Part shown: one piece after another, positions 11,023 to 64,000 of the stretch
How the letters are laid out: the number at the start of each line of letters is the position of its first letter
How positions within the stretch are numbered: position 1 is the first letter of the stretch
DNA from: Amoebophrya sp. A120
Lineage: Eukaryota > Protista > Dinoflagellata
Direction of reading: 5' to 3'
Assembly: GCA_905178155.1 (NCBI GenBank)
Contig: CAJINV010000001.1
Span: 8,504,394 to 8,568,393 of the forward strand
DNA: 64,000 nt
Translations under genes and position numbers: made by a program
The notes under the pieces: model-generated
The model's input: only the letters and a program-made list of their open reading frames with translations
Told to the model about the DNA's origin: nothing
Databases searched by the model: none

Positions 11023-14000
11023 ATGCGCGAATTCGTCGAGGCCTGCCTGGCGCAGGCCCGCGTGGATGCGGAAGAGATGCGGCCGCGCAACTTGCTCAGA
11101 AAGGGTCGATCCCGGGGCGAACGCATCTACATGCGGGTTGTGGGCCTGTGCGAGACCTCACTTCGCGGGTTTTTGGTGAAACTACCCCTGTTCCTGCTGG
11201 AGAGGATACCGCACGCCGCCTCGCTCTGCTCCATTGGGTATCTGTACGTGTTTGCGCAGTGCACGGGGATGGCGTGGATGCTGCTGCTGCATTTTGCTTC
11301 GGTGTTGACCCAGGCGTTCGCTCGCTGTCTAAAGGACAGCTCGGCGAGCTGTTTGCGACCGCCGGAACACATAGAAGCTTCAACACAAACAGCCGGATCA
11401 GCAGCGAGCTCAATTTTCTCGGCATCAGTGCAGAGTGGTGGAGAAAGGGAAAAGGGGACAACGACTAGCAAGTCCCCAGCAGACATTTCGATCATTGAGC
11501 CATGGAACTTCAACACACCATCAACGGAGACTTTGATCGTCTTCTACCTGTACTATGCCATGGGCCGCATGCTGATCTTCGTGGTCTACGGACTGTACAC
11601 CATTGGCTGGGAGTCCTTTCACGACTTCCCCACCGTGCGGAAGACGTATCCCACAGAAAAAAGCCGGCAGGGCATATTTGTAATGCAAAAATAAAAACAC
11701 AGAAAAACCTGTCATGGGCGGCCTCATAGCGTGCTGTTTAGGATACGCAATACAGATGTTTTTGTGTATTTATTTTTGCATTACAAATGTGAATGTCTAG
11801 AAAAAAAAAATCCAATAGAAATTCTCCCCCGCCCCAATAGAAATTCTCCATATAGAGAATCTCCCGCGTCGAGTCTTTCGGTTCCCGCTTTGTCTTCGAT
11901 TGCGTTTGATCTTCGCCTTCGCCTGGCGCAAAAGCTGTTGACCTTCCTCTGGCGCAAAAGCTGGCCGACTTTTTCAAAGTGCTCTTCTTGTTCCGTGCCC
12001 ATGGACGGGTAAAAAAGTTCCTGTGCATGTTTCGGCCTCGGGGGGTTCAGGTTTTTCGGGAAAGAAAGAATAACTCTGCAACGACCTGGCGGCCGGCGTA
12101 GGGGAAATAAAGAATATTCCCGCACAGTGCGCGCGCGCGGGCTTCTTTTTGAGCGGCCGGACGCTCTTGCTCGCCTATGCGCGGCATCTGGGTGGCGGCG
12201 TGGCGGAAATGAAAAAAATTTCTGCGCACTGCGTGGGCGCGGGCTTTTTCTTGTGAGCAGCCGGAGGCCCCTTATCGCCGGCCCGCGCGCCACATCGGTC
12301 TTGCGGCGTGCCGGTATCGGAAAATAAAAATGCGCGCCGTCGCCCGCGCGCCGCGCTTTGTAGCGATGTGGGATCGAAGTCTAAAAATTTTCGCGCGCTG
12401 CGCGCTTGCGAGTTTGCTTTTCTGAACGGCCGCGCACTCCCGCCGCCCGCGCGCCGCGTATGGTGGCGATTTGGGATCGAATTCAAAAAATTTTCGCGCG
12501 CGGCGCGCGCGCGAGTTTTTTTCTCTGAGCGGCCGCGCACCCCAGTCGCCCCCTTCGCGCGCCGCGCTCGGTGGTCATGCATGCGGAATCGAATTCGAAA
12601 AATTTCCGCGCGCGGCGCGCGCGCGAGTTTCTCTCCCTGAGCGGCCGCGCACCCCCGTCGCCCGCGCTTTGGCGATGCGGAGTCGAATCGAAAAAATTTT
12701 CGCGCGCTGCGCGCGCGTAAGTTTTTTTCCCTGAGCGGCCGGGCACCCCCATCGCCCGCGCGCTGTGTTTGCTTGCTTGGTGGCGGGGCGTGGGATCGAA
12801 TTCCAAAAAAATTTGCGCGCTGCGTGCGCCCGAATTTTTTTCCCCGAGCGGACGCGCACCCCCGTCGCCCGCGCGCCGTGCTTGGTGGCGATGGGTGTCT
12901 GTCGGGTCGAATTCAAAAAATTTTCGCGCGCCGCGCGCGCGCGAGTTTTTTCTCTGAGCGGCCGCGCATCCCGATCCCGGTCGCCTCCCTGCGCGCCGCG
13001 CATGGTGGCGATGGGTGTGCGGTCGAATTCAAAAAAATTGTGCGCGCTGCGCGCGCGCGATTTTTTTTCCCTGGGCGGCCGCGCATCCCCATCGCGTGCG
13101 CGCCGCGCTTGGTGTCGATAGATGTGGAGGCGAATTCAAAAAATTTTCCCGCGCTGCGCGCGCGCGAGTTTTTCTCCTTGGCCGGTCGCGTATGTCCGTC
13201 GCCCGCGCTTCGCGCTTCGTGGCGATAGATGTGGAGGCCAATGCAAAAAATTTTCGCGCGCCGCGCGCGCGAGAGTTTTTTTCCTTGGCAGGTCGCGCAT
13301 TTCCGTCGACCGCGCTTCGCGCCTGGTGGCGATGTGGGATCGAATTAAAAAAATTTTGCGCGTGGCGCGCGCGTTTCTTCTTCTACTGGGCGGCCGCGCA
13401 CTCCTTTGCGCGCGCCACACATGGTGGCGCGTTTGCTGGGATTCAAAAAAAGTTTCGCGCGTTGCTGTCGCGCGCGCGGGTTGTGGGGGGAATGGGTTAA
13501 ATTCTTTCGCGCGGGGTGCGGCTGCGTCGTGGTTGGGTCGGTGGAATGGGATAAATTCTCCTGCGCTGCGCGCCTGGAGTTCGTTTTTTCGAGCAGGCGG
13601 CGCGCGCTCCTTTTCGTGCGCCGCGGCTCTCGGCGTTGGTTGCGGGAATGAAAAAAAAAACTCCTCACGCTCCGCCCGCCTAGGCTTTTTCTTTCGTGCG
13701 CCCTTTTCCCGCGTGCCGCACCTAGATGGCGGCGGACCGGCGTTGTGGGGGCCCAAAAAAGTTTCGCCCTCTTTCGGGCAGGCGCGCGGACGTTCTCGTG
13801 TGTCGTGCCTGGCGCCGCAAAGTGGGCCGATCAAAGATTTTCGAGGAGCGCCGCGCGCGCCTACATTATCGCGCGTCACACCTAGTCGGTGTGGCCGTGC
13901 GTCGCGAAGATAATCTTCCGGGCTGCCGCTAGACGGCCTGGGCTGCGTACCTGTAGCCTTCCTGGGCAGGCTGCCCCTAGCATGATTGGGCTACCTCTGG

Positions 14001-17000
14001 CCTGCCGGGGCTGCCTAGCGAAGCCCGGCTTGCGGGTCTGCCGAGCAACAAAAGCCGATCTTGCTGGGCTGCCAGCCTTACGCACCTAGCAGAGCCTGGC
14101 CTGCTGGGCTGCCTGCCTAGGCTAGTTGCTAGGGCTGTCAGCCTAGCCGAGCACAGCCTGGCGCGCTAGGGCTGCTGGCCTAGCGAGGCACAGCCTGGCT
14201 TTGCTTGGGCTGGCAGCCTAGCAAAGCCTGGGTTGCTGGCTGGCAGCCATCTTAGATAGAGAGTCTCCATCTGAGATAGAGAATCTCTATCTCAGATGGA
14301 GAGTCTCTATTTCGGATGGAGAGTCTCTATTTCGGATGGAGAGTCTCTATTTCGGCTTCGCCACTGGTGGAGAAGCTGCTGAAATATAAGAAAAACACAT
14401 GGGAAAACAGTAAGAAACAGAAAAAGAAAAAAAAGAAAGAAAAAAGAATACAGATACTCTATCTCTCATGGAGAATTTCTATTCTCCTCCGAGAATCTCT
14501 ATTTCAAATAGAGACTCTCGGAGATTTTCTATTTCGAGAGCTGTACAATTGACCTTCCAGCTTTTTTCTGTGGGATAAGACGGTTTCCCTGTCCATGCGC
14601 GAGATCGCGGAGCGGTACACGGTATCAAATGTAAAAATGTCTGGGTCTGGAAGATTGCAAACTTGTCATGCTAAATCTGCAGCATGCAAAAATCTGTGTT
14701 GCATGATTAGCAAAAGTCGCCCGATTTTGACCAAGTCGGGAGGTAGTTTCTCATGCAGGATAGGCATTACAGAGGTCTCGCAGAATCTGTCATGCTAGGT
14801 CCGGCATTCCAGACCTCCTGGGTCATGGAAAAGCAGCATGACAAATCGCGCATTATTCCAGACCCAGACATTTTTACATTTGATACACGGTGCGGGTGAC
14901 GTGCCGGAGCCGCAGCCTGTCGCCGGCCGCGGGACTGGACAGCACGGCGACCTCCCGAACCTTCCCGCCGAACTCGTCCCACGCGAGCAGTGGTAGTCCG
15001 TTGGAAATCGACGAGTACCCGCCAATAGTAGACACGGATCGACCGAGCACCGCCTCCCTGGAGTCACGGTCGACGCGGGCGAATAGTTCCGGCGTCGGAA
15101 GCGATACCCTGGTGTCCTCGCACAAGATTGTGGACGAATTCGACCGGAGTGGGACCACCACGGCCACCGCGATAAGCGCGGTGACGGGAAAGGCCGCGCG
15201 GGTAGTAGAACTGAGCCCGAGAGAGAGCCAACTGCGGTCGGGCAGCAGTGTGACAGAGGAAACAGCGGGGCTCCGCCAGCGCCATCCGCAGAACGTTCGC
15301 AGCCACAACTCGTCCGCCAGTCAGATTGATGGCAGAAGTGCGGGCGATCGCGACAACAGGTCGGATATATTGAAGGATGGGCTGGAGATTGTGGATCATG
15401 GAACTGTCCACATGAAGGGCCCCACTACGCGGAGCCGCAGTATCCAGAGCGAGGTGTCGACCGAAGGTGAGGAGCCTATGACTCCAAATACGGAACAAGG
15501 GGCCAATGGCGCGGGAAACAATGCATTTTTCTCGTCAGAAGACGAGGAGCGAGCGAGGTTACGCCGGGAGAAGAAAAAAACCGGGGGTCGACGCGCGCTG
15601 CTGATACTTCCGCTTGTCTGGCTCTTCGTTTTGTGCGGCTGGCTCGCGGTCAGCAGCTTCTACTTCGACTTCACAGAGGGGTTATCTTCAGCAGATATGA
15701 GGAACAGCAGCAGTAGCACGCTGTCCATGTCGGAGAGTATCATGCGACCCACGGGGCGCCTCCACCGGTGCTTCCTGTTCCTGATGCTACTCTCGCTCGT
15801 CCAGTGGGCGGCGCAGTACCTGTTTCTGTTTCCAAATCTCTTTTCCGCTTTGCTCCTCACGCCGCGCAGCACGGCTTTGTTTGGGTTCTACTTCCTCTTT
15901 TCCATCATTGGCGGGGCGAGGCTAGTGTCCTGGTTCCTGTTTCCGCAGGGGAAGCAAACGAAAATGTTTTTCGGGGTCATCCCACACCACTTGCTGGATG
16001 TGGTGCTCGTGATGGCGTGGATGGGCTGGATGATGTGCACGTTGTTGCACTTGTTCGGTTCGCGGACGGCTTTCAAGCAGACCGGGTTTTTCAAGGAGCG
16101 GTTCAACGACGACCAGCTGTGGCGCAACCACATCGCGATTTTCAAAGTGACCTACATCGTCCCCTTGATTCTCCACTTCTTCCGGGGATCGCTCTTCTCC
16201 TCGCATTTGGGAATTCGGCACGCGATGAACGACTCGCTGATCATCATGGTGATGTACCCGCTGCTGCTGTTGTTGATTTGGACCGCGACGTTTCTGCTCG
16301 TCGCGGCCCTCCGCCGCGGCCGGCGCATCGGCATGCTGCAGCTCGCCACAATGGTGCCGCTCTGGTTCGTCAGTCAGTACGTCTGCTGGCGCTACTTGCA
16401 GCTGGAGTCGAAGTCAGCGATTTGTCTGGTCTGGGCGCATGGTGTGAGGCAGAGCTTACGGTTGTTCTCGCGAAAGACGCCCGCGTGGCTGGCCGCGGTG
16501 ACGAGGGATTTTTTCGCGCAGATAGATGCACTGCTAGGAAGGGAGCCGAATGTGGTTGACAGGAACAATACTAAGAAGCTGTCCGCCGCTGCGTCGCCCA
16601 CCTCCCCTGGCGTTTCGACGTTGTCAAAATCGAACCACGGTACTGCTACCGCGACGCCAATCTCCGCCGTCAAAGATGAGCCGGGGTTCGCTAGTAGCAA
16701 GCGCCGGGCGCGCATGTCCTCGCCGTCTCCGGAGAGTCCGATTTCAAAAATCAGTGTGGGCTTCGCGATGGGCAGCGCGGGAGATCCGCACGGGGAGCGG
16801 GACGAGGAGAACGAGAAAAATCCGATTATGAAGAAACCCAGACAGTCCATGCAGTACGTCATCGACGGGTACGGAAAGATGCTTTTAGTTTTGTCGGTGG
16901 TGTACCTCGGCACCTGTCTGTTCCTCGCTTTCGTCGGCGAGATGCAGCGAATCTACAACATTCTCCCCATGACGATCTCGATGCACACGAGCGCATCGGA

Positions 17001-34114: not shown

Positions 34115-36011
34115 GAAGTTCCAAATTAAGTATGAGCCGAAACGACTAGTGCGAAAAAGTCTGCGAGTTGCCAGCACTTGCGTCTGTTTACTGTAGTGCT
34201 CCCCGAAGATGTTGTTCGAGGAACGCGGAATTATTTGAAGAAGATCTAGTACACTAACATGCCAAGTAGAAACCGTTAGAAACGGAGAAGCACAGAGCGG
34301 ATCTATTTCGAAGAACTTCTTCTAGCAATTCTACTGCTGATGGATCCAACCCGCGTTCTTGACGACTGTCTGTCCTCTTGAAAGCACTACCACGAGGATC
34401 CTTGACACCACTCAACAGCGATCTCTGTGATTCTCCTGAAGACGTTCTTCTTGCCAATCTACGAAGGAGCCTACACCCTGACGTAAGTAGTACACTCCTG
34501 CATGTTGCTGGAAGATCTCACCTATTCTTTTTTCCTGACAAGGATCTCGTCTTGACCGCTCCAGGGATTACGCATATCGTGGCAAAACGACCGGATGCGA
34601 TAAGAAAGCAATGGTAATTCAAATTCATAAGAAAGTACCTTTTTCAGGAACATGTGGAACGGCTGTAGTGTGGCAGTCATGAATTGTTTTTTTTTTTGTA
34701 GAATTTGTTTACCGGGTGCATAAAATCGCATTGTTCTCATTTGTTTGCGAGAAGATCCTTTTTCTATAGTTGTGCGCAAGTAGCACCATCCATATACAGC
34801 TTTTTTGCTGCAAAGGTTTTCTCCGAGGACGTCACGAACACATACAACATTCATCATGTATGAGTAACATGTTTTGAAAGAAAAAACACCATAATTGTTT
34901 TGTCGGAAGTTTATTTTCTGAACACAGAAAAATCGTGTCCTGCTCCTGATCTGTCAATCTCTGTTGTAGCGAGAAGCGGCACAGAGACCACTGTGAAGCG
35001 GCGGCCGCGCAGTTGTGGCACTGAAAGGAGTATACAACCTCCCAGCTGCTTCTGAAGATTCATTTAGAAATGTGCAAAGGCACGGGCATCCACAGGTTTA
35101 TTCACTGTCTGCCTGATACCTTGCTCCACCTTCAACACTTATAATTTTCCGCGAAACACTATTAATTACCCAAAAGAAGTGGTTTTTCCATGGCGACGCA
35201 GAGGACGAGGCGATTTTCCCGAACACGTAAATTATAGTATATGAAAGCCCTCTGATGAATCTGAAAAATTGCTAGTTTGAGAAACGAAAAGTTCTCGTGC
35301 TTATGAAGAAACGGGGTGAAGTTTGTCGAAGATAAATCGGAGGTTTCATCATTACATGAACGCCTTCGAGCTGTACAATCTCTTTTGTTTTGACGAAAAT
35401 AAAAAGACAAATTTCAACCTTCTTCACTAACACAAACAGCTCATCCACTGATTGTTGATAGACCCTGTCTGCCGAACCGTAAGGACGTCGTCCGTTGGAT
35501 CTCTACAACACACCTCGCACTGGGACGAACGTACATAGAAAAGTACAAATAGAACATACATTTAATATCAATAGTCCTGACTAGGGGAAGTAGATTGATG
35601 GTCACCTGAATCCGAAAGACGAAGCGAGCTTGCATTTGCATTCTCATAGTTTTAGACTACTACGTTTGTGCCAAGAAGGTGATGCGATAACAACGCTTGA
35701 GATCTGTATTTCTGCAAAAATTCCGTGTGCACCAAAGCATGCGTTGTAAGAAATGCTACTACTTGTTTCGCACCTGTAGCCTAAAGTACTATTCGAGAAG
35801 TTGAAAATAGCCTAGTTTTGAAAGTTTTGGCCACGAAACGAAATTTGTGAATATTTATACCGCTAAGGAGCTCTTTGATTCTCTCTCTTCGCGTATAAGA
35901 TTGCCGGCAAAGCAGCTGAGGACCCACTGTGTATCGCGCCTCATAACGACAGCGACACTTCAAAATTATCTCCGGAGAAAGTAGAGCTTCGACGGTCTGT
36001 AAAAATCTATA

Positions 36012-39000
36012 ATGAAGATTTTTAACTTTCGATCGTGGGCGGCATCCGCGGTTTTTCTGTTTCTGTTCCAGGGGAGCTTTGAGGGGAAAAATGCAATCTC
36101 CCTGCAGGGTGGCCATGGGAAAGCGAACCAGACCGGCGCAGGAAACAAGGCAAGTGCGGGCAGCAGTTCCTCCGCCTCTGCAGCGAGTCCGAAGGCTGCA
36201 CCAGCGAAACGAAAAAGAGAAACCGCGAAAGCGAAAGCAGGGGCTGCTAGTAACAGCACAACCTCGACCTCGGGAGCAGCTTCGTCCGCGGCCGCAGGTT
36301 CGTCAAATAAGTCGCCTGGTGCAAAACCAGCCCGCAACAGTACTGCCACCGCGAAAAGTCGAGCTGGTCCAGCGAGGAAGACGTATCCTGAGGTGCCTTT
36401 AGCAAAAACCCGAGCTGCTAGTAGTGGGGCAGCCGACCCCGCAGTAGTATCAGCGAATCTGGTATCGGAACCTGCAAAAAAGCGTGTGAACATCACAGGT
36501 GCTAGTGGAACCGCGCCGGCCCTGCCTGCCATACCAAAAGCGCTTGTGGGAGCAGTATACGATGCAGCCTCCGCCGCGTATCCGAATGGTACAGCTGCAG
36601 CTTCGGCCCGACCGAGCGCGCTCCTTGCACGCAGTGGAGGCGCAGGATCTACTCCAACATCGTCGGGGGTTGCGGCAGGCACGGTGTCGGTAAGGGAAAT
36701 GCGAGACGCGACGGGAAAAACGATTGCAACCGTGGTTACGCCGCAGAATGCGACGTCGCCGGCCAGCGCCGCAACCGCAAAGCCCGCTACCTCGTTGCAG
36801 GTGCAGTTGCAACTGCAACCTGCGGCTGTGACAACAGGAGCCGCCTCCTCTGCATTGAACCTTGGTGCAACGAGCCGGACAGCCGCGGAGCCTGTGTTTA
36901 AAGAGGCTGCATCAAGCACCAGGGTGGTCGCAGCTCCGGCAGGTAGTACCTCTCCCGGGGGGCCGCGTGGCGGAGCTATCGCTGGAGTAGCAAGTGCAGC
37001 TCGGGTTGTTGTTTCCGCGGTACCGGCTTCTGCCGGGCTAGCGGTCGAGAGTCTCCCCGCACGAGGTACTCTCTTGGCGGAGGTCGGCAGTCTCCCCGCT
37101 AATCTTGGCGGAGGAGCGGCAAGTGCAGGCTGCGCGGTGCACGGTTTGTCTTCAAGCGTAGGAACACCGGTTGTAGTCAATGGACCAGGTCGCGGCGGCC
37201 ACGGCGCTTCTCCGGCAACAGGAACCGCGACAGCACCCGGAGTAGAATACGGAGGTGCTAGTGGAGCTGTGAGTGTGACTAGACCTCCAGGCCGGCAACT
37301 AAAGTTGACGCACACGGATCAGGGGCAGGGGGCGACGGCCAGCACGGCGTTCGGCGAGGAGTACACGCAGGGCGTGGGCGCAACCGCCGCGGGAACCTGG
37401 GCGGAGGGGTTTGGCTGTGGGAGTCCGGGGGCCACGGACGGCGACGTCGCAGCAGGAGGACTAGCTCCCAACTACGAGCAGGGGGCAGCTTCAAACTCAG
37501 CGGGGGGAGAACTCCTGCTGCAGCACGCCGCACTAGACGCTGGTGAAGAGGAGGAGCGCGACGAAGCCTGCAGGCCGCAACCACGAGATGAAGCCGCAAC
37601 TGTACTAACACCTGTAGCAACTACAACGCATCACCTCCGACAGCGCTTCCGGGTGTGGCGGGGCGCGACGCACGTTCACTTGGCCTCGCGAGCGAAGGAT
37701 CGTGAAAATAATCGCAAGAACAACGAGGTCAAAACGCGGAATGCGCAGGCGACCAAGTTTCTGATCAAAGGGAGCAGGAACGCGTTGCTCTGTCCGCTGC
37801 ACTACCGACGCAAAAAATTCTTGCAGAAGCTGCGAGAAAAGAGCGTCTTCCTACGGCAGGACGGCCTGGACGATGGCCTGCCCTCGCTCGCCGAGCTTCC
37901 CACGCAGCTGTCTTTGTTCACCTCGTGCAACGAGGAGCAGAGGAAGAATGTGCACTGTTTCGACGGCCGCTACACGTACGGCGTGGCCATCGACAGCGGG
38001 AACTTTGGGCAGGTGTTTAGCGCCTTTGACAACCACCGTAAACAGAAGGTCGCCATCAAGCAAGAGCGCCTTTGCGTGCCGCCGCACCGCCAGCAGCTGG
38101 AGGCGGAAAAGCGAGTGTACCAAGAACTGCACAAACCAGCCTCCCCTTTCGGCACGGAGGATCCACTCGCGGACCCCAGCAGCACCTCGCCGAGATTCGC
38201 AGTTGATAGTTCATCATCAGGAGAGTCTCGGCAGTATTCGAAGGAAAGTGCGGCATGCGCCTCAGGCTGCGCGTCGTCAGGAAGTGGAACCACCACTTTG
38301 CCCCCCAATAAGCGCAGCAGGGGCTCCTGCGGTCCGCCGTCTGCCTCGCTCTGCATGCACGCCGAACTCGGGTCAATTCCAGCTTCGTGGAAGACGCACA
38401 AAATCACCGACCAAACAGCCGCTACATTCTGTAGTCCTCTGGAAGCCTTGGACGCGACCGCCAGTGAGGTTCTGGCGCAGCGAAAACTGCTTTTGGAAGC
38501 GAAGAGATCGCAGGGAGAGATCGAGGCGGCGATCCAAACTGCTGCAGCGGCCTCTCAGACGGAGGTGAGGCGGGAAAAAGTGGAACTGAAGCCAGGCGGG
38601 AGCGCCGATAAAGTCGCGTCACAACCTCCAGGCAAGACTCGCTCGTCAGAAATAGTTTCTGCGCCTCAAGAAAAGGGTGACCAGGTGGCTCTGGACAGGC
38701 CGCCAGAAAGTGCGATTACCGTCCAAACCCGTCCGTGTAGGAGTTTCTCGACTCAGCAAGATGTTGTAGCAGGAGCGCCGCCGGTTGAGCACGCGTTTAA
38801 GGAGGATGTTTTTTGTATCCTGGACTCCGAAGACGAGGCCGAAAAGTCGCACGAGCTAACTTTTTCGCCTGTCGACGAGTGCGCCGACTATCGAAAAGTC
38901 ACGCTGAACAACCGCACTGCGGCGAATAGTACCTCGACGGTAATGCAAAGAACCCGTTTCCACCAGATTCTCAAAACCGGTATTGGTATGCTGCAATTCA

Positions 39001-42000
39001 TCGGCAACCGAGCAGGCTGCTTTATGGGACGGAAAGCAAATCGCGGCCCGAAACCCCCACCGCTGTACCAGCGCGACGGATCGGGTGCCGCGCACCAAGG
39101 CATCTTGCCGTGCGAGCAATTCGGGGTCGAGCACCCGAACGATCGGGAGAACGGCTTTCGTGCGTTGGTCCTGCAGAGCGGTGGACTCAGCATGGAGAAA
39201 CTGCTGCACGCTCCCTGCGAGAAGTCGCACCGCAACTGGGACGCGGCCACAACGGCAAAGATCGGCTTGGAGCTGGTGGATCGCCTGGAATACATGCACT
39301 CCAAGGGCTTCATCCATCGCGATGTGAAGCCGGAGAACTTCTTGGTGGACGAAAAGCGTGCCTTTCTGTGGCAGAGGGCCTACCAGTTGCAATCCGAGAG
39401 GCTGTACGAAGACTTTCGTCTAAAGGAGGCGGCCATCCACGCGACCTACCGGGGTAGCCCAATGGTCGCTCGTCGCGGAGATCGCCACGCACGTCATCAT
39501 GACCCCCCTGGCGAGATGAGAGCGCAGGCAGGAAAACCGCCTATACTTCGCGTTCGACGTAGAACGAAAAGCAGAAGAGCAGTATCGAGCGGCGCGACGA
39601 CCGTGGTTCAGGATAGATCTGCTCCCGGTCTTGATGAGACACCGGTCTGTGCGCCGCCGCGCAAGCAGGCCAGCGTTCGGCGATTTCTGAAAGGGCGATC
39701 TCTTTCCGCATCGTCCGCGGCGTACCGACGGCGCCTCGATCAAGCCCTGCGAGAACTGGAGGACCTGCTGAAGCACGAGACCAACGCGCTCCACTTCTGC
39801 TGTCCGGCCATTATTTCCGCGGTTGATTTCGGACTGTCCAAGACGTTTTTCTGCCGTGCTGACAAGGCCCCACAAGCAGGAGGAGGTGCAGTAGCTGCTG
39901 CCAGTGGTACGTTTGCGACAAGCGGCACTGTGAGTACCGAAGGGCCCCCTACTTGCGCCTCGGGTGTAGTGAATTCTACGGAGGCACCAGGAGGACGAGG
40001 AGGCCCAGAAGAAGAAGCTGCGCATCCTGGACAAGAGCCGACCAAGGGACAAGGTGACGACCAATTACGACTACGACCCGCTGGCTTTGAGACCAGGAAG
40101 CGCATCGGCCTGCGCTCCGCGGACCACCCGGCGGAACAGGTACTAGATGTGGGCTCGGGGGAGGAAGTAGAAACGGAGCAGCGCCTCCCGTTGCACGCGA
40201 ACGATCTGCAGGTCGAGATATTAGACCTGGAAGACGGGGTAGAGGACGACAAAGAGGACAAGAAAAATAATAAGTGCGACACCTGTTATTCCACAACTGT
40301 GCCGGCAACGACTGCAGGCTGGGCACGCATGGACACGAGTACGCCAAATAGCCCTGGATGCAGTGCCGATTGCTTCGGCGGCGGCCGGGGGCCGGGCCTG
40401 AGTAGTCCGGCCCCGGCGTCGCTTCCCGGGCTGGACGAAGAGCAGCCGCCGACCGCGTTTCCGTGGAGCAGGCAGGTGGCTCAGGACAATGGTTTGAGCT
40501 TGTTGCCGTTAAGAAACACGACTTCGGCGGACCACAACGATACCATTAGCTTGACTAATAACACGACAAGTGCGGAGCGAGGAGGACACGGGCAGCAACA
40601 GCTCATGCATGCTGGCGGTCCCGACTCACCAAAAGCCGCTGGCTTAGGTGGTCTTTCTCGGCGCCAACCCCGTTTGCCTGATCTGCAAAAGGACTGCGTA
40701 GAAGTAGCGGCTCCCACCGGGCGGGGAGAGCGTTTTTGCACGCCAGCGGGAGGCAGTGGCGCACAGTTAATATCAGAGAAAATGGTACCGAAAGACCGGC
40801 AGAGTGTTCCTCGAGTGCTTAATGCACTACGCGTACGCACCGAAGAAGATGCTCCGGGTATAATTAACAAGGCCATACTGGACGGGGTGGATCCTTCTAA
40901 AGATTGCGCTCGAGCAGGAGACCACCTCCGACCGCAGTTCCATGCCCCAAAGCTGAAGCACATTCCGTACACTTCGGGCAACATGTTTGTCGGTACGCGT
41001 CGGTACGCGTCGCTTAACGCGATGAAGGGCGCGGAGCACAGCCGCCGGGACGACCTGGAGGCCATGGTGTACGTTTTGCTCCGGTTTCTGAAGGGCGGCC
41101 TGCCGTGGCTGCACCTGCCGAACCCGCCCAAGCCCACGGAGGACGAGCTCGCGCGCATGCGCGCGGAGATCCGCGAGAGCCTCGGGACAAGCGCGAGTCA
41201 GGAGGACTTGCAAAATGCGCTCGAGTGCAAGCTCCGAAAGCGCCGAGACTGGATCGCGGGGAACCAAATCCGCGACAGTAAAGACCGCCACACCGCGGAA
41301 CAGATCGTCGGAAATGTGCCCTACGCACAGAACTGGGTGCAGCTTCTATCGCACGCAGAAATCATTTTCCTCTCACACGACCCAAGGCAGTGAAGTTGTT
41401 GTCATGTTTGCGCATTGCTATTGCAGCACAAGATGAAAACATCATTTTTATGCTCGGAATTGTTCATCGGCCTGAAATAAATTCCGTCGCGCCTCAAGTT
41501 GGATGTGTTTCAGTACGTATTTTTTACCAGGGTTATGCTGATCAAGAAGTTAGTTGTGGAAACTCGCAACTTATGACACCAACGGGCTGTTTTAAGCAAA
41601 ACTATACTTCTAGTCAGTGAGCATTCCTTCGGTTTCAACACAAAGTCGCTCTTCAGAAGGTGGTGTGAGGGCGAGATTGCTGCTCTCCTATAGCGTCTAA
41701 GGTACACACGACAGCTGAAGTTCGACCAGAAGCCTGACTACGCGTGGATCCGCAAAATGCTGTTAGATATCTTTTACCGCGAAACAGCACCTCTGTGCCG
41801 GTTGCGAGCTGCGCAGGCACGGTGGGAGAGGAGTAGTGCAGGAGCAGTTGCGCCCGACGCAGCTGCAGCAGCGCGGGAGGTCGTCGCCCAGGCCGTAGAT
41901 AAGACTAAAGATGACATCAACAGGCTCTCGCCTCCGGTGTTGGATGGTAAGTTCCCGACACCACCTCCTCCTCCCGGCCCCATTCTACCGCTGACGAGAA

Positions 42001-43120: not shown

Positions 43121-44791
43121 TAAGTAGCCCGTACGACGTCCTCAGTGTAGAGGAGCACGCAACTTGCGAAACAACAGAGATTGTCGCGGAATAGGTCGTG
43201 CAGGAACGAAGGAAACGTGGGGAGTCCGCAAGAACCACGGAGGTTGCGCGGATGGTGCTAATCGTATATTTCTGACGTAGTCATGTTTTCGAGCGAAGTT
43301 TTCCCATCTTTGAATGGGTCGAGGCTCTCGAATCAACAGTTTTTGGAACCGATGAAGTGACGATGTGCATCTGCCACTGTTTTGAAGGCTCTCGTCCCTC
43401 TTTCCTGTTTTGGAGTCCGTCAACTGAAGCTTCTACCTCATTATCATAACAAGCCATTTTACTTTTTTTTTTCTGGCGGCAAGAATTCTGAGCAGGCGCC
43501 TCGGTGGCCGTCGTATTTGACGTAAAAATCTTCTTTTTCTCTTTTTTTACAAATCAAGCGCTTGTTTAGGGCTTTCTCACATTTAAGTTCGATAGATTCT
43601 TCTACATCATCATCGTCTACTACCACTTCTTAAAAGACAATAATCATCAATCAATCGCTAGAAAACTTTACCACCTGTTCATCGCTGACGCCGATCGTGT
43701 GTATTCTGAGAACTTTCAGCCCGGCCGCACCACAAAAAAGGATAATTTCGTAAAAAAAAATGAACTGAACTCCACCGGGGTGAATTGTGGAGGAACCAGC
43801 TTTTATTTTCTTGTAAGATCTTCCTTCTGCGAGTGGTATCGCACTAATGAAAAAATTGGTGAGCAAATACTCACCGTGAATAGTTTATCAAAGAATACTG
43901 GTGTACAAGTCATTCTTTTTGAAATGAATCATCTGCAACTGCATTTCTCAAGAAGAAGTATAGCGAGGTGGGTTGTAAACATAAAGGGAAATGTGGTTGT
44001 CGTGTCTATTTTCCTGTTTAGAACGCACCCTATAAACGCTCGCAGGAGTATCGGACAGGATTTGCAAGCACTTGGTACAGCATCAGACCGGGAGAAAGAA
44101 TCCCGTCTGTTCGATCAGCGCGCGACCAAGGAGCACTACGTACGATGGACAAGCAAGACATCATTGATACGTAGGCTCTAGAACTGACCAGGAACATTGT
44201 ACATGTAAATTTGCGGGCGGCAACAATCTTTTTCTGAAGCAAGCATGAGCGGAGAGAAAAAGTAATTACTCGGCAATGAATGCCAAGGACGATGCGCACG
44301 TTGCTGGCAGCGAAGTCGATAGCTTTAGCATACCATAGTGCTCGAAACAGGAGCAGAATAGGTGAAGGGGTCTGAAGATCGCAAGCGGCGTACAAATACT
44401 TACTTTGACCCGTATAAACGAGGCGCTTCTTTCGAGTGTTATCTACATGAAAACCAAAAGCATGCAACCATACACAGCTAGTAGCGCAGTGAGGACCTGT
44501 AATTGCAATAGTTTATTCATCAACGATCCGGTGTTCTGTTCAAGCAGGTACCTAGCTTTCCCCAGCTTCGCTGTGAACCTTGAAGATCCTTTGGAGTCGA
44601 AGCACGGGACTTTTTGCACTCTGTATTGTTTGACTTTGTCGGCTTGAAACAGCGATTTATTCAGGATCTGCGATTTTTGTAAGAGGGCATCTCAGGTTGC
44701 GACGGCCTACTTTCTGTTTTTGTACTTCTCTCTCTGTCTGTGGCGTATCGCACCTGTGCCGATATGCAGCCCCGTTTTGCGCCTTGAGAAC

Positions 44792-47700
44792 ATGATCATG
44801 CCGGGGGAAGATATGCAGGCGAGTCACAACCACGGGCCTGCCGTGTGGAACGGTAGATGCAAAGTTTTGGTTGGCTTTCTTGCCCGTGGCTTCTTGCTGG
44901 GAAGCTTCTGCAAGTGCACATTTTCCACAACTTGTGTCAGCGCTTCGGCAGGCAATTTTCAGGACGATCTCGCCGCGCAGATGACTGCTGCTGCCAAACA
45001 GTTACGGGCCCGTGCGTACGAAGCAAACACCTGTGTGGTGCCCTCCCTGTCGAGTGTGCAGTCGTTGCTGCATTCCTTTCTGGAGCCAAACAGTCTGCCG
45101 CCCTCGCGGTCGGACATCTTTGCGCATTTGCTCGAACGGGGTTTGCCGAAGATGAAAACAGCAAAGCGAGCTGCTCTTGAATCTCCGCGTGACCCCACTA
45201 GTTTTCCCGCCGCTCTTTCGCCTCGTAATGCGCAAAGCCGCGGTAGTCAACCTGATCCTGCCTTTGACAGATCGCCGTCAGGCGACGAGGAGAGACTACA
45301 CCATCGTGCGAGACATGTCAGTCCTGAGGCAGGCGATGCGCGAGTGGAAGAAGGGACCGGAAGAAATGGCGACTGGCCGGAAAGAATGACCGCGGCGACG
45401 CAGACGGAACGAAGCATGCTTTCTGAGGGTGCCACTGCCAGTTTGTCTGCCTCCAGAAGTGCGGGGCGTGGTGTTGTACGAGAAGACCATTCTTCGGAAG
45501 TAGACCGCCAGACGACTGAGCGTGGAGACCTCCACAGAGGCGAGCCACAGAGTGGTACACGCGTAGTTGCAGAGCGTGGTCGCAAAGAGCGGTCGCGTGC
45601 CCCCTCCCCCAGCCTAGAACGCATTCTGGAAGTCAAGCGCAGACGCGTTTCCGAGAGTAACGTGCAGCGGTTTCTTCACGGGGATCCCAACAGCAAGGTT
45701 GCCGTGCTGAGCCCAGATGAGGCACCGAGAGAGGAAGAAAGGAAAAGTTGTGTCAAGCGCAAGCGCGGTTCTTCGCGTTGCCGGGTGAGGAGGCAGGCTT
45801 CTTCTCCAACCGCAGGCCGTCGTGGGACTGCAGATCATGCGCCAGCCCGTCGTCGCCCGTCAACTCAGCCTAGTGACGCTGTTGCGGCACCACGTCAAGC
45901 ACCTGCAACGCGCCCGCCATCGGAGCTGCTTTGGTCCACGAAACCTCCGCGAACCAAGATTTTCTTTCTGAAGAAGTTCCGCATTTTTTCGCAGGAAGTG
46001 TACCATTCCTCCCATCTGGACCTGCTCATGAGTGATTTCGATTCCGTTTTTGTGCAACGGGAGTACCGGCTCCCGGAACAGGACGAAGGTCGTTTCTCTG
46101 ACTTTACCGTTTTTCTTATTGTGAGGAATAATCCCCCCTCCCCATACCAAACCGGGACACTTCTGAAAATTTGTGATGCAGATTTGAGACCACATGGCAT
46201 TGCATGAAGGCAAGTCTACAGGCTCCGCCACATTCTACAGGCGGCTTGTCATGCTGTTGCTCCTACAGCGTAGACGTCTGCCATGCTAAGCGCCTAGGCC
46301 AAAACTTGTCTACTCAGGCCTGATATGGGCCTGCAGTCCTCGCCAGCAAGACAAATCTGATTTGTGACCTCAGATACAGCATCAACCTCCCCTAAGTGTG
46401 ATCATTTCCGCCTCCCCTAAGTGTGATCATTTCCGCCTCCCCTAAGTGTGATCATTTCCGCCTCACGCCGGCGGTCGACTGTCGGCTATCTGGCTCCCCC
46501 AGCTCATGATTGCGGCGTTGGCTGGTGATGACGAGGTTGCGGACAGTTGACTTGTCATCTGTCTGGTTCGCTCACTTTGCTGCCACGACTGTTTGGTCCC
46601 CGGCCCCCTGAGGCGGGGGGATACGGGTTACCTGGTCGGGATGTCGCGCGGAAGGTGTCTCTCACGTCCCTAGCTCTTCGTACTCGCCGCTGAGTACAGT
46701 CGTGCTCCTTGGTTGATCGCCACACTGTTTCATAGTGCTGAAACGACCCGGCTTTCACTAGGGGGAGCATTCGTACATTTTGTGCCCTCCGGGACTATGC
46801 CTCTGCTTCCGTCTAAACTGAGGGGTCCACTTATCCCTCTCGGTATTCGGTCGCAGGGAAGGGTTGCCGGGGTCTCCCTCGCATCGGTTCTCGATGTCGG
46901 GTGTGAGTTTGTGACTGCGGGGGCAGTGGTTGGCTTAGGTTTGTGGAGTACTTCTGAAAAGAGGCTCCCATTCCTTCTTCCAGGCAGTGATCCTAGATCG
47001 CTGCCACGCGGAGCCACCCCCGTATTTCACCCCCAGGGGGTTGTGGACCTGGCAAAACCGATGAGTTCGGGCTGCTGACTGTTCCACCTCCCCTAAGTGT
47101 GATCATTTCCGCCTCACGCCTCAAATACAGCATCACAAATTTCGTTTTCGATATGGGGAGGGGGGATTTTTCCTTTCGATATTTCTCTCCGTGCCTGCGC
47201 CGGCAGGAAGACCTTCTGCAGAGATGAAAGAAAAGGAATTGTGGCTGCGAGACGAGGCGGAGTGCAGGGCGTTCGTTCGGGGCGAAAACGTTTTGTCAAG
47301 AAGATCAAGTTCTTCATCCACCAGCTCTTCTTGCGAGGCGGAAGCAACCTCGTCTCACGAAGGCGATGAGAGTCCTTTTTGCAATGTTTCAACGCCGCAA
47401 TCTTCCTCCTACGCGACGTCTTCTACGGTCAGAACATTGGAGGACTTTCCGCAGGGCCGGGCTAGCACCAGCTCCTCGACGTCCTCCGCGGGTCTCTCCT
47501 CCCCTCCAGCGGTGAGAAGTCTGCCAAGCCTCTCTCTCGACCCCCCGAGACCAGGGGGCCGCTCGTGTTTTCTTCACGGAGAAGATCTTCATGTCGCCTC
47601 GATAGATCTGGAGCAAGGCTGCTTTCTCAGAAGTGGTAGCAGCTCAACTGCGAGTTCGCCCTCCGTGGCTTCCCCGCCGGCCTCCTCGACCACGGGAAAG

Positions 47701-48960
47701 TTCCTCGTGGTCGGAGGAGACCAAGGGAGAACCGCAGCACGAGCATCAAATGATCCGTGGGAAGATACAAGAGTAGCAGTGGCAGATGACAGAGCGGTAG
47801 CCGAACTTGCACCACTCGAGGATTTTTTGCCCAGAGCTGCATCTTCCTCCGGTCAGCAACAACATGGCGGTTTCAACATTTTTGATGTAGTACTTCGGCC
47901 AAGTTTGGTTATCTCTACTTCGACGTCGACCCCATTAGAGCAGCAGGCCCTGTTGATGTCCTCTCCGTCCTCCCTCTCGGGCGTGTCGAGTACCGGGCGC
48001 AGCTCTTCCTCTCTTCCCTCATTGGTCACGTCCCCGTCTGGCGTGCAAGATCGGAATGGCGTTTCGGGCGCGGCAGTGCCGCTGAGGCGGTCAGGCATTT
48101 TGTCTATGGGACGAGCGGGCACAAGAACTACTCGCCCAGCTTCGAGTTCATCGTCGGCACGAAGAAGCAGTGCGGACGTCGCGGCTAACGCTGGTAGTTT
48201 TCCACTAGACGAAGACCAGCGCGCTGGGGCACAAGACGACTCTACTAGGGGGCGTTCACGTCGTCCTGCTTGGGAGTTCGAGCTTGGGGATCATGAAGTA
48301 GAGAGTGAGGCTGCTGGTTCAGTGGTGGTCGACGAACGCGGGTGCAAGAAATCTCGCAAGAAAAAAGCAAGTGCGAGGAGCAGTCAAACGGACTCTCCCA
48401 AGGCCATTGACCGCGTTTTCGAGCAGCATAGCACCGCCATGATTTTCTACGACAAGGATTTGGCACACGGGTTCCGGGGGCGTGTATCGGATTTGGACCT
48501 AGATCGAGGCTTCTTTCGCGTCATTTTGTCTCAGAAGGAAGCGAGTTTTACTTTGCAGCAAGCATGTTTAACGTCGAAAGCCCGAGCAAGTCAACAATCT
48601 AAGAATCAACGCAACGACACGAAAGTTGAGAATGCGGGTAATGCACACAATCCAAATTATCCTGTTGACGAAGACGATGACGATCAGCACCATTCCATCT
48701 GCGGCAGTGTTGAATTATGCAGCCACCATAAGTTGAAAACGGTCCCAGGAACAAAGAGTGACGGCGACGGCACCTTCGGGACTTCGGCGGGGACCAACAA
48801 CAAGAGCACGGGCACTATTTCAATGCACTGGGAGATCGATTTTCACTTGCACGAGCATGCAGTTTACGTGGTCCGCCATACCACGGTGGCCAGCTCCGAG
48901 CTCGAACGGATCGTAGCTGAGCAGCCGGGTGGGGAAGACACGACCGAGTTTTTGGCATAG
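44792..48960 (+). CDS. Large hypothetical protein (exons 44792-46116, 47187-48960; further exons to ~50041 possible)
   Basis: ORFs 44720 and 47191 join in frame after excising 46117-47181 (FTVFL|SVPAPAG). No recognised domain. Confidence 0.6.
46117..47181. mobile_element. Introner family D carrying a nested insert, 1065 bp, TSD TTTCT
   Basis: TIR tattgtgaggaataatcccccctccccata / tatggggaggggggatttttcctttcgata. TTTCT at 46112-46116 and 47182-47186. Without the insert it is 314 bp, close to the 311-bp and 325-bp family D copies. Confidence 0.92.
46385..47118 (-). mobile_element. Non-coding retroposon-like insert, 734 bp, with 17-bp TSD and terminal direct repeat
   Basis: TSD cctcagatacagcatca (46368-46384) / cctcaaatacagcatca (47119-47135). 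The 25-mer cctcccctaagtgtgatcatttccg occurs three times at 46386-46460 and once at 47087-47111. The strand is inferred from the tandem tail. Confidence 0.75.
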
Positions 48961-56354: not shown

Positions 56355-58400
56355 ATGCGGGACGAGGAAGCGGCAGAACAGCGTGCGCAGCCCGGCGGGA
56401 GCAAAGACATAGACACGCTCGACGATGCCGAATTCCGGCGCGTCGACATCGTTTTTACGGATTTGGACGGCACCTTTTTCCCGGGGGCCTACGAGGAGGT
56501 TCCGCAGGAGGAGGCACGCATGTTTCGTCGGAATCTGAAGCTCGCGGAACAGTTGGAAAAGGAATTGCACATTCCCGTCGTGCCGGCCACGGGCAATAAT
56601 TTGGGCATCGCCCAAATGAAGTTCACGTCGACCGCCGCAAAGGACAAGGGTGCTGTCCTCCGCGACTTGAAAACGACGCCGGGGATCTACTGCAACGGGG
56701 CTTTGGTGAAGGGGGTGAACGTATCGAAAGGAAAAATCCCCCCTCCCCATATCGAAAACGAAATTTGTGATGCTGTATCTGAGTTCACAAATCGACTCGT
56801 CATGCTAGAAGGCCAAGAGCCGCAGTCGTGGCCTCGTTTGCAGGCAATTTGTCATGCTGTTTCCCAATCTCAGCTGCCTCCTATCATGCTGAAGATGCAA
56901 GGCTTCCCCACGCCACCCAGCACTACAGTCCGCATCTTTTCCCGTGTAGCATGACAAAGCTGATTTGTGACAACAAATCTGCATCACAGATTTCCGTTTT
57001 GATATGGGGAGGGGGGATTCTTCCTTTTGATAGAACGGGAAAGAAATAGCGGCGGAGATCGTTCCGAAGACGTTCGTGGAGAAGCTCACACAAACTGCGG
57101 CAAGGTTCGCGGAAGCGGTGGAACCGGGCGCGTGCTTCGCCGGCCTGGGGCGGGACGTTTGCTGGTTGCTTGACGTGCAGCAGGACGCTGTGCGCGAAAC
57201 CGGGAACAAATTCCTAGACCGGATGGGGCTCCTTCTGGCAGAGGACGAAAGTAGTGCTGCAAGCAGACGCAACTCGGGTGAAGAAGGAGCTCCGAAGTTC
57301 TACGAGTGGGTGTCGGATCCAGCTTTTCTGTCCTCGCAAGACTGCGACATCTTGAGCTTTTTGATTCTTTTTTCAAACCAGGGCGACTCGGAGACGCCAG
57401 CGGCGAAGGAAGTGAGGCTGCTGCGAGCGCAAGCCTTTTTGCAAGCCGAGGGCATTCTTGATTTTGGCCAGCATGGCGCGGAAAGGTTGGGAAACGGTGT
57501 GGGAGAAGGTGTCGTTTGCAAACACGTCCATGTTTATCAGGGGTAGTATGGGAAGAGGCTGCGTTCGTTTGGGTCTGTCAAACGCGAGGAACAGGGGACC
57601 CTGGTCCTAGTTAGGATGACAAAAAGAAGCCGTGCGTAGGGAACCAGATGGTAATTTTTTTGTTGAATACCAGTACCACCATATTGAAGCAAGGAGCTGC
57701 AGCTGCTCTTCCTTATTGTATGGTAATTGCAGGCGATGCCGATAGTATTTTCGGTTCGCATTCGGAGTTGCTCGGAAAAGAGCAGGCTCAGCGGCGCACG
57801 CTTTCCTTGCTCATACCCCTCCTGGTATCGGTCCAGAGATCGATATTTCACCTGACGGCGTGAATAAGGGGAGTGCAATTAGGAAGTTTCTCGAAGCAGG
57901 GGCTGGCGAAAATACTGGTACTGCGAAAACTGTCGCGGTTTTTGGCGATGCAGGTAACGACCTAGAGCTCTTCGGAGTGAAGCGTGGACCTTCGGCCGAG
58001 CTGTTGCCCTTATTCCAGGACGGTTTCGATTATCGACCGAAAATTCGTGTCGCCATGCCGTTATCCACCCTAACGGATGTGTCAGGGTCAGAGAAACAAG
58101 TTCAAGATGAAATTTGCACTGACAGGCAGAAAAGCCGCTGCGCCGAGCTGATTGAGCATAAAGGCATATACAATACTGAAAACGAGCGCAACGAGAATGA
58201 AATTTGCAATGACTTCTTGTTTCTACAAGGTACACGAGCTGTTTTCGCAAATATATTTGATGTTGTACTGTACCTGTATCCTGACCCTTTGACATGCATA
58301 GCTCTGGGCGAATGATAGTTTGTTGGTAAAGGACGCTACTATTGTTGACACGGTAGATAAGGTTTTGAAAAGGATTGTAAGCGCGAAGTCGAATCGGTAG
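56355..58400 (+). CDS. Cof-type HAD-superfamily hydrolase, multi-exon
   Basis: Motif I FTDLDGT, then VPATG, IYCNGA, EIDISPDGVNKG and motif IV FGDAGND. The last exon reads VAMP|WANDSLLVKDA to TAG at 58398-58400. Confidence 0.82.
56722..57032. mobile_element. Introner family D, 311 bp, TSD GAACG
   Basis: TIR tatcgaaaggaaaaatcccccctccccatatc / gatatggggaggggggattcttccttttgata. GAACG at 56717-56721 and 57033-57037. Excision gives KGVN|GKEIAAE. Confidence 0.94.
58062..58300. mobile_element. Degenerate introner-like intron, 239 bp
   Basis: Starts TATCC and ends GCATA, with a residual inverted match (tgtcagggtcag / ctgaccctttgaca). The flanks GCCGT/GCTCT differ at two positions. Removal restores a HAD-like C-terminus. 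Confidence 0.5.
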
Positions 58401-63584: not shown

Positions 63585-63875
63585 ATCGCCCACCGCCCAC
63601 CGCCCAATTCGCATCGCCAAACTAGCCACCACTCCCATCGCCTAGCTCCCAACTTTCATCGCCCACTTCCCAATCCCCATCGCCCAGCTCCCAACTTTCA
63701 TCGCCCAACTCCAATCGCCCGACTATTTTGCGACGCAAAATATTTTGCAACTCGCAATAATTTGCGAATCAAAATACTCTGCAACGCAAAATATTTTGCA
63801 ACTCAAAATATTTCGAAACTAATATTTTGCGAGGCAAAATGTTTTGGATGTCGGAATATCTTGCAACTCAGAATC
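63585..63875. repeat. Two short degenerate tandem arrays inside an intron
   Basis: Repeated atcgccc/cccaact units at 63585-63720, then repeated palindromic gcaaaatattttgc units at 63723-63875. Confidence 0.65.
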
Positions 63876-64000
63876 TTTTTCCACCCTCGGAAACTATTCT
63901 GACCAGAAAATTTTTCGCAACATCAACCCCCCGAAGAAACCGCTTCCCCCGTTTTTGCAGCTTTGAAAGCGGGCGGCACGGGGAGAGCAGAAAGCACGGG

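What the first reader, a model, noticed from the sequence alone, without database searches (positions are those of the whole stretch)
46368..47135. Terminally redundant, structured retroposon-like insert nested inside an introner
Seen: a 734-bp insert flanked by a 17-bp duplication with one mismatch; the uninterrupted family D copy at 56722 has this 17-mer only once. One end has three tandem copies of a 25-mer. The other end repeats the 25-mer plus cctcacgcc, giving a 34-bp redundancy (46436-46469 = 47087-47120). On the minus strand the unit reads gaggcggaaatgatcacacttaggg and is followed by gagg, which would allow template realignment. The body is non-coding and hairpin-rich (gccggcggtcgactgtcggc, gtactcgccgctgagtac, gcagtgatcctagatcgctgc, cacgactgt...acagtcgtg). 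Known: long TSDs and 3' tandem tails are typical of target-primed non-LTR insertion. Inference: a SINE-like or retrozyme-like element, possibly copied from a circular or tandem RNA, using an introner as a safe harbour.
Basis: partly seen in the sequence, partly recalled or inferred. Interest (0 to 1): 0.72.

Follow-up and report, generated by a model that had tools for sequence, protein, structure and literature searches.

The report
Truncated retroposon aimed at introners
A 734-base non-coding insert inside a transposon-derived intron is a front-truncated copy of a multi-copy repeat, and a second copy sits at the same spot of the same intron family elsewhere, so it is likely an RNA-copied jumping element aimed at these introns, while its repeated ends are likely a one-off copying slip and not the mark of a circular RNA.

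Summary
The anatomy is real: a 734-bp insert, a 17-bp duplication with one mismatch (11 bp exact), three tandem 25-mers and a 34-bp redundancy, inside a TAT…ATA introner. The interpretation needs turning round. Public contigs show a multi-copy family (roughly 7-14 times single-copy depth) that shares the RIGHT end and stops at different points on the left, so the + strand is the likely RNA sense and the 25-mers lie at the 5' junction, not in a 3' tail. The main family continues at least 166 nt past that junction with other sequence, so the redundancy is not a family trait. No ribozyme was found. A second, 98-nt copy (L002) sits at the same site and orientation in a divergent introner of the same family, without tags or duplication. 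One likely-RNA contig joins the host exons in frame across introner plus insert. Best reading: target-primed non-LTR retroposition aimed at an introner motif, with a template jump and slippage at the 5' junction. The scan has already noted introner-targeting retroelements on other DNA of this genome; this looks like one more family. Partner enzyme and true 5' end are unknown.

The parts
44648..46111 (+). Upstream open frame of the host gene (5' exon boundary not defined)
   Evidence: 519-aa stop-free frame; X3 contig 9 matches 45800-46111 with 0 differences
46112..46116 (+). Left 5-bp target duplication of the host introner (TTTCT)
46117..47181 (.). Host family D introner (TAT…ATA inverted ends), enlarged to 1065 bp by the insert
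   Evidence: removed together with one 5-bp repeat in likely-RNA contig X3-9, which restores frame
46368..46384 (+). Left copy of the insert's target duplication; contains the introner arm motif that is the likely target
46385..46467 (+). 5' junction tag: one A, three exact 25-mers and 7 further bases, all copied from the element's own 3' end; not part of the main family
   Evidence: main-family contigs leave the window sequence at 46468
46468..47118 (+). 5'-truncated body and 3' end of the repeat family, non-coding, moderately structured
   Evidence: X1/X2 contigs 98% alike at about 7-14 times single-copy depth; fold
47086..47123 (+). 3' end of the element, ending in two CGCCTCA units; its last 5 bases are shared with the target
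   Evidence: family contigs X1-7 and X2-13 both stop at 47123; L002 shares the end
47119..47135 (+). Right copy of the target duplication (one mismatch; 47125-47135 exact)
47182..47186 (+). Right 5-bp target duplication of the host introner
47182..48960 (+). Downstream open frame of the host gene, in phase with the upstream frame once 46112-47181 is removed
   Evidence: X3 contig 9

Best explanation
The insert is a 5'-truncated copy of a multi-copy non-coding repeat that sits at the same site of a family D introner in both loci with known flanks, and it was likely inserted by target-primed reverse transcription by a LINE-type enzyme aimed at a motif in the introner arm. Steps: (1, inferred) a + strand RNA longer than 820 nt is made from a master copy; (2, inferred) an endonuclease nicks the introner arm next to the CA(A/G)AT-CAGCA motif and the RNA 3' end pairs over 4-5 bases with the freed target strand; (3, shown as structure) copying stops early, at 46468 here, 47022 in L002, about 47066 in a third piece; (4, inferred) in this copy the enzyme jumped on a 2-base match to a 3' end of the same RNA type, copied 34 bases, and slipped back 25 bases twice on a CCTC repeat before joining the target, which made the redundancy and the three 25-mers; (5, shown for structure) second-strand cutting gave an 11-17-bp duplication here and a small target loss in L002; (6, supported by one likely-RNA contig) the enlarged introner is still removed exactly, so the host frame is kept. 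Whether the family is a non-autonomous SINE-like element or the long 3' UTR of a LINE is open.
For: Common right end, variable left ends in 3 pieces (window; L002; X2 record 15). Main contigs are deeper at the right end than at the left (X1 333 vs 194; X2 492 vs 292; single-copy contigs 23-25 and 42-44). Main family runs 166 nt past 46468 with other letters in 2 of 2 DNA-like runs of one sample. L002: same orientation and same site within 3 nt, host left parts only 65% alike while the inserts are 93% alike (69 nt identical), so two insertions, not one inherited copy; rough chance of the site 2e-4 from window density. Tags carry this copy's minority-type bases, not the majority type. Unit start and end share 8 of 9 bases, 25 nt apart. 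+ strand folds better. X3 contig 9 joins 46111 to 47182 in frame. Precedents read: R1 gives both duplications up to 17 bp and target deletions (PMC2718515); R2 template jump with extra short repeats at the junction (PMC3414825 section 8); RNA-target annealing in SART1 (PMC7265360); Tx1 into Tx1D (PMC4494074, PMC6719617).
Against: Only 2 copies with known flanks; L002 has no duplication and could be a recombined piece of a third copy. Contig depth is not a copy number. No contig covers 46386-46460 or carries this copy's own body variants in X1/X2, so the tags rest on the window assembly alone. X2 record 15 (48 nt) is not shown to lie in an introner and ends at 47113. X3-X5 are RNA only by guess. 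Structure support is mixed: of 23 distinct listed variants at predicted pairs, 13 keep the pair and 10 break it; 2 pairs change on both sides (16 variants were not shown by the tool).
Confidence: 0.72

Rival explanations
1. Same retroposon, but the tags were made at the DNA level: repair of the 5' junction or later replication slippage copied the nearby 3' end and expanded the 25-mer, without a reverse-transcriptase jump.
For: Three identical 25-mers bounded by an 8-of-9 repeat can expand by ordinary slippage; tags match this copy's own 3' end.
Against: The first tag needs a + strand template at a time when only the RNA should exist (inference); repeats at an RT jump junction are on record for R2.
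Confidence: 0.15
2. Penelope-like partial tandem: the family normally carries its 3' end upstream as a pseudo-LTR, and this copy lost the sequence between that repeat and 46468.
For: Penelope elements form partial tandems, have 8-10-bp duplications or none, and a 31-bp optional tail (PMC3846280); the contig graph breaks at 47123, so what follows in other copies is unseen.
Against: Pseudo-LTRs there are about 200 bp, here 34 bp; no hammerhead; L002 has no upstream repeat; strict site choice in an introner fits a sequence-specific LINE better (inference).
Confidence: 0.07
3. Retrozyme-like element copied from a circular or multimeric RNA, the 46467/46468 joint being the circle junction.
For: More-than-once-round copying would give exactly such a redundancy; 650 nt and 59% paired positions or more fit plant retrozyme circles in size. 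A single accidental circle cannot be excluded.
Against: No hammerhead, HDV-like, twister or pistol match on either strand; the main family has other sequence at that joint; no 3'-to-46468 back joint among the joints shown (15 of 44, 2 of 2; contigs drop rare forms); no 350-bp LTRs and no tandem monomers.
Confidence: 0.05
4. The tags are an assembly error and the true insert is only the truncated body.
For: No public contig laid covers 46386-46460.
Against: The tool filters short and rare contigs; an assembler would have to invent three exact copies of a minority-type end 650 bp away with a clean duplication beside them (inference).
Confidence: 0.04

Closest known systems
Tx1L of Xenopus laevis inserting into Tx1D (Tx1 clade; passages of PMC4494074, PMC6719617)
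   Same: A non-LTR element that inserts into a non-autonomous DNA transposon family, read as a safe haven.
   Different: Here the target transposon is itself a spliced intron inside exons; the piece seen is non-coding; clade cannot be set without the RT.
R1 and R2 elements and their SIDEs (passages of PMC2718515; abstract and section 8 of PMC3414825)
   Same: Fixed site, 5' truncation, microhomology junctions, both duplications up to 17 bp and target deletions, in-vivo template jumps with short extra repeats.
   Different: Target is an introner arm, not 28S rDNA; the jump is to the element's own 3' end, not to snRNA or tRNA; no 5' HDV-like ribozyme in the part seen.
Eel UnaL2/UnaSINE tails and SART1Bm priming (passages of PMC1636434, PMC7265360)
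   Same: 3' stem-loop followed by a short terminal repeat, template slippage, and proposed pairing of target-like RNA bases with the nicked target.
   Different: The long stutter here is 25 nt and at the 5' junction; the 3' stem-loop here is not better than shuffles (z -1.2 and 0.0).
Retrozymes (abstract of PMC4918200; passages of PMC7229834)
   Same: Non-coding, 600-1000 nt, GC-rich, repeated ends.
   Different: No hammerhead, no LTRs, no tandem monomers; redundancy is not shared by the family.
Amoebophrya introner elements (host; passages of PMC7789003)
   Same: TAT-starting inverted ends, 3-5-nt direct repeats, non-canonical removal.
   Different: The passages seen do not mention retroposons nested in them. 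The organism was not confirmed here by protein homology.

Membership tests
Non-LTR retroposon copy (TPRT product) | Shared 3' end with variable 5' truncation | tested here: met
   Left ends at 46468, 47022 (L002), about 47066 (X2 record 15); right ends 47113-47123
Non-LTR retroposon copy (TPRT product) | Variable-length target duplication or target deletion, microhomology at junctions | tested here: met
   11-17 bp in the window, none in L002; 2-5-base overlaps at junctions
Non-LTR retroposon copy (TPRT product) | Dispersed multi-copy family | tested here: met
   Depth about 7-14 times single-copy contigs, diverged subfamilies, second locus L002; depth is only a rough guide
Non-LTR retroposon copy (TPRT product) | Autonomous partner with RT and endonuclease sharing the 3' end | not testable with these tools
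SINE | Head derived from tRNA, 5S, 7SL or snRNA with internal promoter | tested here: inconclusive
   None in the part present, but the true 5' end is missing from this copy
SINE | Non-coding | tested here: met
   Longest frame 134 aa; 0 of 5 frames reach a Pfam cut-off; subfamily changes even over codon positions, with a 1-base gap. Holds only for the part seen.
Tx1 clade / sequence-specific LINEs | Insertion at one position of a repeated target | tested here: met
   2 of 2 copies with known flanks
Tx1 clade / sequence-specific LINEs | RT and APE phylogeny | not testable with these tools
   No coding part recovered
Retrozyme | Hammerhead ribozyme in the repeats | tested here: not met
   Rfam to E=10 and own descriptors on both strands (descriptors recalled, simplified)
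Retrozyme | About 350-bp LTRs (plants) or tandem 150-450-bp monomers (animals) | tested here: not met
   Only 34 bp redundancy, absent from main family and L002
Retrozyme | Circular RNA in vivo | not testable with these tools
   Only contigs held the element; contigs cannot show circles of rare forms
Penelope-like element | Pseudo-LTR of about 200 bp from partial tandem | tested here: not met
   34-bp tag only, not in L002; full-length copies unseen
Amoebophrya-type introner (host) | TAT…ATA inverted ends, short direct repeat, exact removal from transcript | tested here: met
   X3 contig 9 lacks 46112-47181, frame restored; X3 is RNA by guess

The most novel reading that the evidence does not exclude
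A non-coding retroposon whose 7-base repeat tail mimics the introner arm, so that RNA-DNA pairing in different registers (CCTCA here, ACGC in L002) lets one element prime on several introner subfamilies: a retroelement guild that homes on self-removing introns and may be transcribed and released as excised intron RNA, occasionally re-read end to end.
Probability: 0.2. Interest if true: 0.72.

Novelty: new member of a known kind. Interest (0 to 1): 0.4.

Why it matters
If introner arms are a programmed landing site, retroelements in this genome can sit inside exons at little cost, and the host's unexplained non-canonical splicing is shown to depend on the introner ends, tolerating a 750-bp insert 60 bases inside one arm. 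The short target and short 3' end give handles to find the enzyme. I found no paper on retroposons targeting these introners in searches (listings, plus passages of two papers), but the scan has noted the theme before.

Tried and rejected
Rfam: nothing near a gathering score; no tRNA. Pattern scans: 25-mer type, 0 hits in metagenome and viral contigs; 20-mer, 3 metagenome loci of which 1 real (L002) and 2 chance; 0 viral, 1 prokaryotic chance hit; introner-arm motif, 0 of 21 viral loci are introners; 17-mer, 0 of 5 real. In all 1 of 30 loci is a relative. No RNA holder listed; raw RNA run X18 laid 0 reads, which is no test; 7 of 20 listed runs were laid (X1-X5, X7, X18). No cover of 46386-46460 is a hole that proves nothing. 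Earlier-findings search by sequence gave nothing for the insert or the D copy, and nothing nearby. Protein Atlas gave no answer. Sliding 120-nt folds: + strand z from -2.4 to +0.6, within the range of 23 exon controls (mean 0.10, sd 1.32, min -3.39). CCGATGAG at 47057 resembles a hammerhead core but has no matching GAAA arm. Supplement searches found nothing, even for the word Amoebophrya in Dataset S2, where long cells are cut, so they are uninformative; the other 13 files of PMC12130899 were not read. Hebe (PMC2861651) and Zorro3 circles (PMC3510499) were read in passages and do not match. LTR or gene fragment: no TG…CA ends, no Pfam domain.

Full report
Observation. The coordinates hold. 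The insert is 46385-47118, flanked by a 17-bp repeat with one mismatch, of which 11 bp are exact. The 25-mer occurs four times in the window, three in tandem at 46386-46460 and once at 47087, against none in 100 shuffles. The host is a family D element, 46117-47181, with TAT…ATA ends and a 5-bp TTTCT repeat; two uninterrupted D copies in the window show the empty site. Such ends match the introners described for Amoebophrya A120 (passages of PMC7789003); I did not confirm the organism by protein homology.

Host splicing. In run X3, RNA by the tool's guess, one 3489-nt contig matches 45800-46111 and 47182-47500 with no difference and nothing between. The loss is introner, insert and one 5-bp repeat, and it joins a 519-aa and a 631-aa frame in phase. 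An empty allele would look the same, but introner depth in X3 is tens to hundreds against tens of thousands in the DNA-like run X1, which favours RNA. This is one contig.

A family, and its direction. In X1 and X2 (one sample) contigs about 98% like the body lie at 194 and 292 depth on the left part and 333 and 492 on the right end, against 23-25 and 42-44 for single-copy contigs: about 7-8 and 11-14 fold. The tool warns that depth is no copy number, so this is a rough guide. Diverged subfamilies also exist (38 differences in 285 nt; contigs sharing only modules). Both right-end contigs stop at 47123, after two CGCCTCA units. On the left, the main contig leaves the window sequence at 46468 and runs 166 nt further with other letters, sharing only two C with the tag. 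A 48-nt piece (47066-47113) lies inside another single-copy contig. Contigs from likely-RNA runs X3, X4, X5 and from metagenome X7 also cover the body. A fixed right end with staggered left ends makes the + strand the likely RNA sense; the + strand also folds better against shuffles (z -3.3 vs -1.1).

A second insertion. One of three metagenome hits, L002, is a D-type introner with its own 5-bp repeat holding the last 98 nt of the element, in the same orientation and directly before the same CA(A/G)AT-CAGCA motif of the right arm. The host left parts are 65% alike and the inserts 93%, and the 3' end is of the majority type, so this is a separate event. It has no tags and no duplication; a few target bases appear lost, with a 2-base overlap at the left junction and ACGC shared at the right. 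The exact empty site of L002 is inferred from D variants among loose ends. From the density of D copies in the window, a second hit within 3 nt and in the same orientation has a chance near 2e-4, a rough figure. Two of two copies with known flanks share the site.

The redundancy. The tags carry the bases of this copy's 3' end, which differ from the majority at four positions and one gap; a minority type also seen in the 48-nt piece. They therefore come from the same RNA type. The unit begins and ends in 9-mers that match at 8 positions 25 nt apart, enough for slippage on CCTC. The simplest history is early stop at a C-run, a jump on two bases to a 3' end, 34 bases copied, two slips, then joining to the target. 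R2 shows an in-vivo jump with extra short repeats at the junction (PMC3414825 section 8), and R1 gives both duplications up to 17 bp and deletions at one site (PMC2718515 passages; general model in PMC2881922 passages). DNA-level slippage could have made the second and third unit. No laid contig covers the tags, so they rest on the window assembly; an X3 contig of this copy's type crosses the right junction, but with only 16-21 bases beyond it, under the tool's 31-base bar.

The duplication. CCTCA at 47119-47123 belongs equally to the element tail and to the target. Either the duplication is 17 bp with a later point change, or it is 11-12 bp and the RNA end paired with the target and supplied the mismatched A. 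Target-like RNA bases that anneal to the nick are proposed for SART1 (PMC7265360 passages), and slippage on terminal repeats for UnaL2 (PMC1636434 passages). I cannot separate the two.

Structure and ribozymes. Rfam gives nothing near a curated score. Simplified, recalled descriptors for hammerhead, HDV-like, twister, pistol and hairpin ribozymes found nothing on either strand. Short hairpins are not in excess and 120-nt windows lie within exon controls. Of 23 distinct listed variants at predicted pairs 13 keep and 10 break the pair; two pairs change on both sides (46817/46844 and 46881/46897); 16 variants were hidden by the tool. This is weak support for some conserved folding. Retrozymes are defined by hammerheads in LTRs or tandem monomers (PMC4918200 abstract; PMC7229834 passages); neither is met. 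Penelope pseudo-LTRs are about 200 bp (PMC3846280 passages); not met in what is seen.

Comparison and novelty. It works like Tx1L in Tx1D, a non-LTR element landing in a DNA transposon (PMC4494074 and PMC6719617 passages), and like R1/R2 in its junctions. Membership of any clade cannot be tested, since no coding part or true 5' end was recovered, and SINE versus LINE 3' UTR is open. Gozashti et al. report non-LTR-derived introners in Amoebophrya A120 (PMC12130899 passages), which is a different thing. Searches listed no paper on retroposons that target these introners; searches were used for junction precedents and read mostly as listings. Earlier unreviewed notes of this scan describe LINEs and leader-capped repeats at fixed introner positions in the same genome; they gave me the targeting idea and the Tx1L lead before I found L002, and none matched this sequence, so this is likely a further family. 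I could not check that their site is the same motif.

Verdict. Real, multi-copy, likely site-specific non-LTR retroposon copy in an introner that is likely still spliced out; the terminal redundancy is likely a private junction product. New member of a known kind; interest 0.4.

Noticed in passing
window 11647-14577: A 2931-bp TAT…ATA element with perfect 14-bp ends and a 5-bp repeat contains about ten copies of a 107-bp GC-rich unit and 20-bp repeats; possibly a giant introner or a telomere-like satellite carrier.
   Followed up: partly
window 46171-46190 (- strand), 56974, 56781, 61398, 61595, 42398, 60313, 33435: The CA(A/G)AT-C.GCA motif next to the insertion site recurs in both arms of D introners and in other introner families, so more landing sites exist than were used.
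   Followed up: partly
X1/X2 contigs laid on 46625-47091: Several contigs share only modules of the element (46909-46948, 47032-47091) and continue with other sequence, one 1113 nt long: a mosaic of related families or LINE/SINE pairs.
   Followed up: no
L002 685-949: A second introner (family of window 42552) with damaged termini lies 80 bp from the D copy.
   Followed up: no
L005-L023, L025: 20 of 21 viral contigs hit by the introner-arm 18-mer share one conserved AT-rich context with a G-run, unrelated to introners; likely a phage regulatory or terminal motif.
   Followed up: no
window 63587-63921: Short tandem arrays (7, 21 and 17/34-bp periods) at the window end.
   Followed up: no
window 36003-41393: A 1796-aa open frame with only a fragmentary kinase match.
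   Followed up: no
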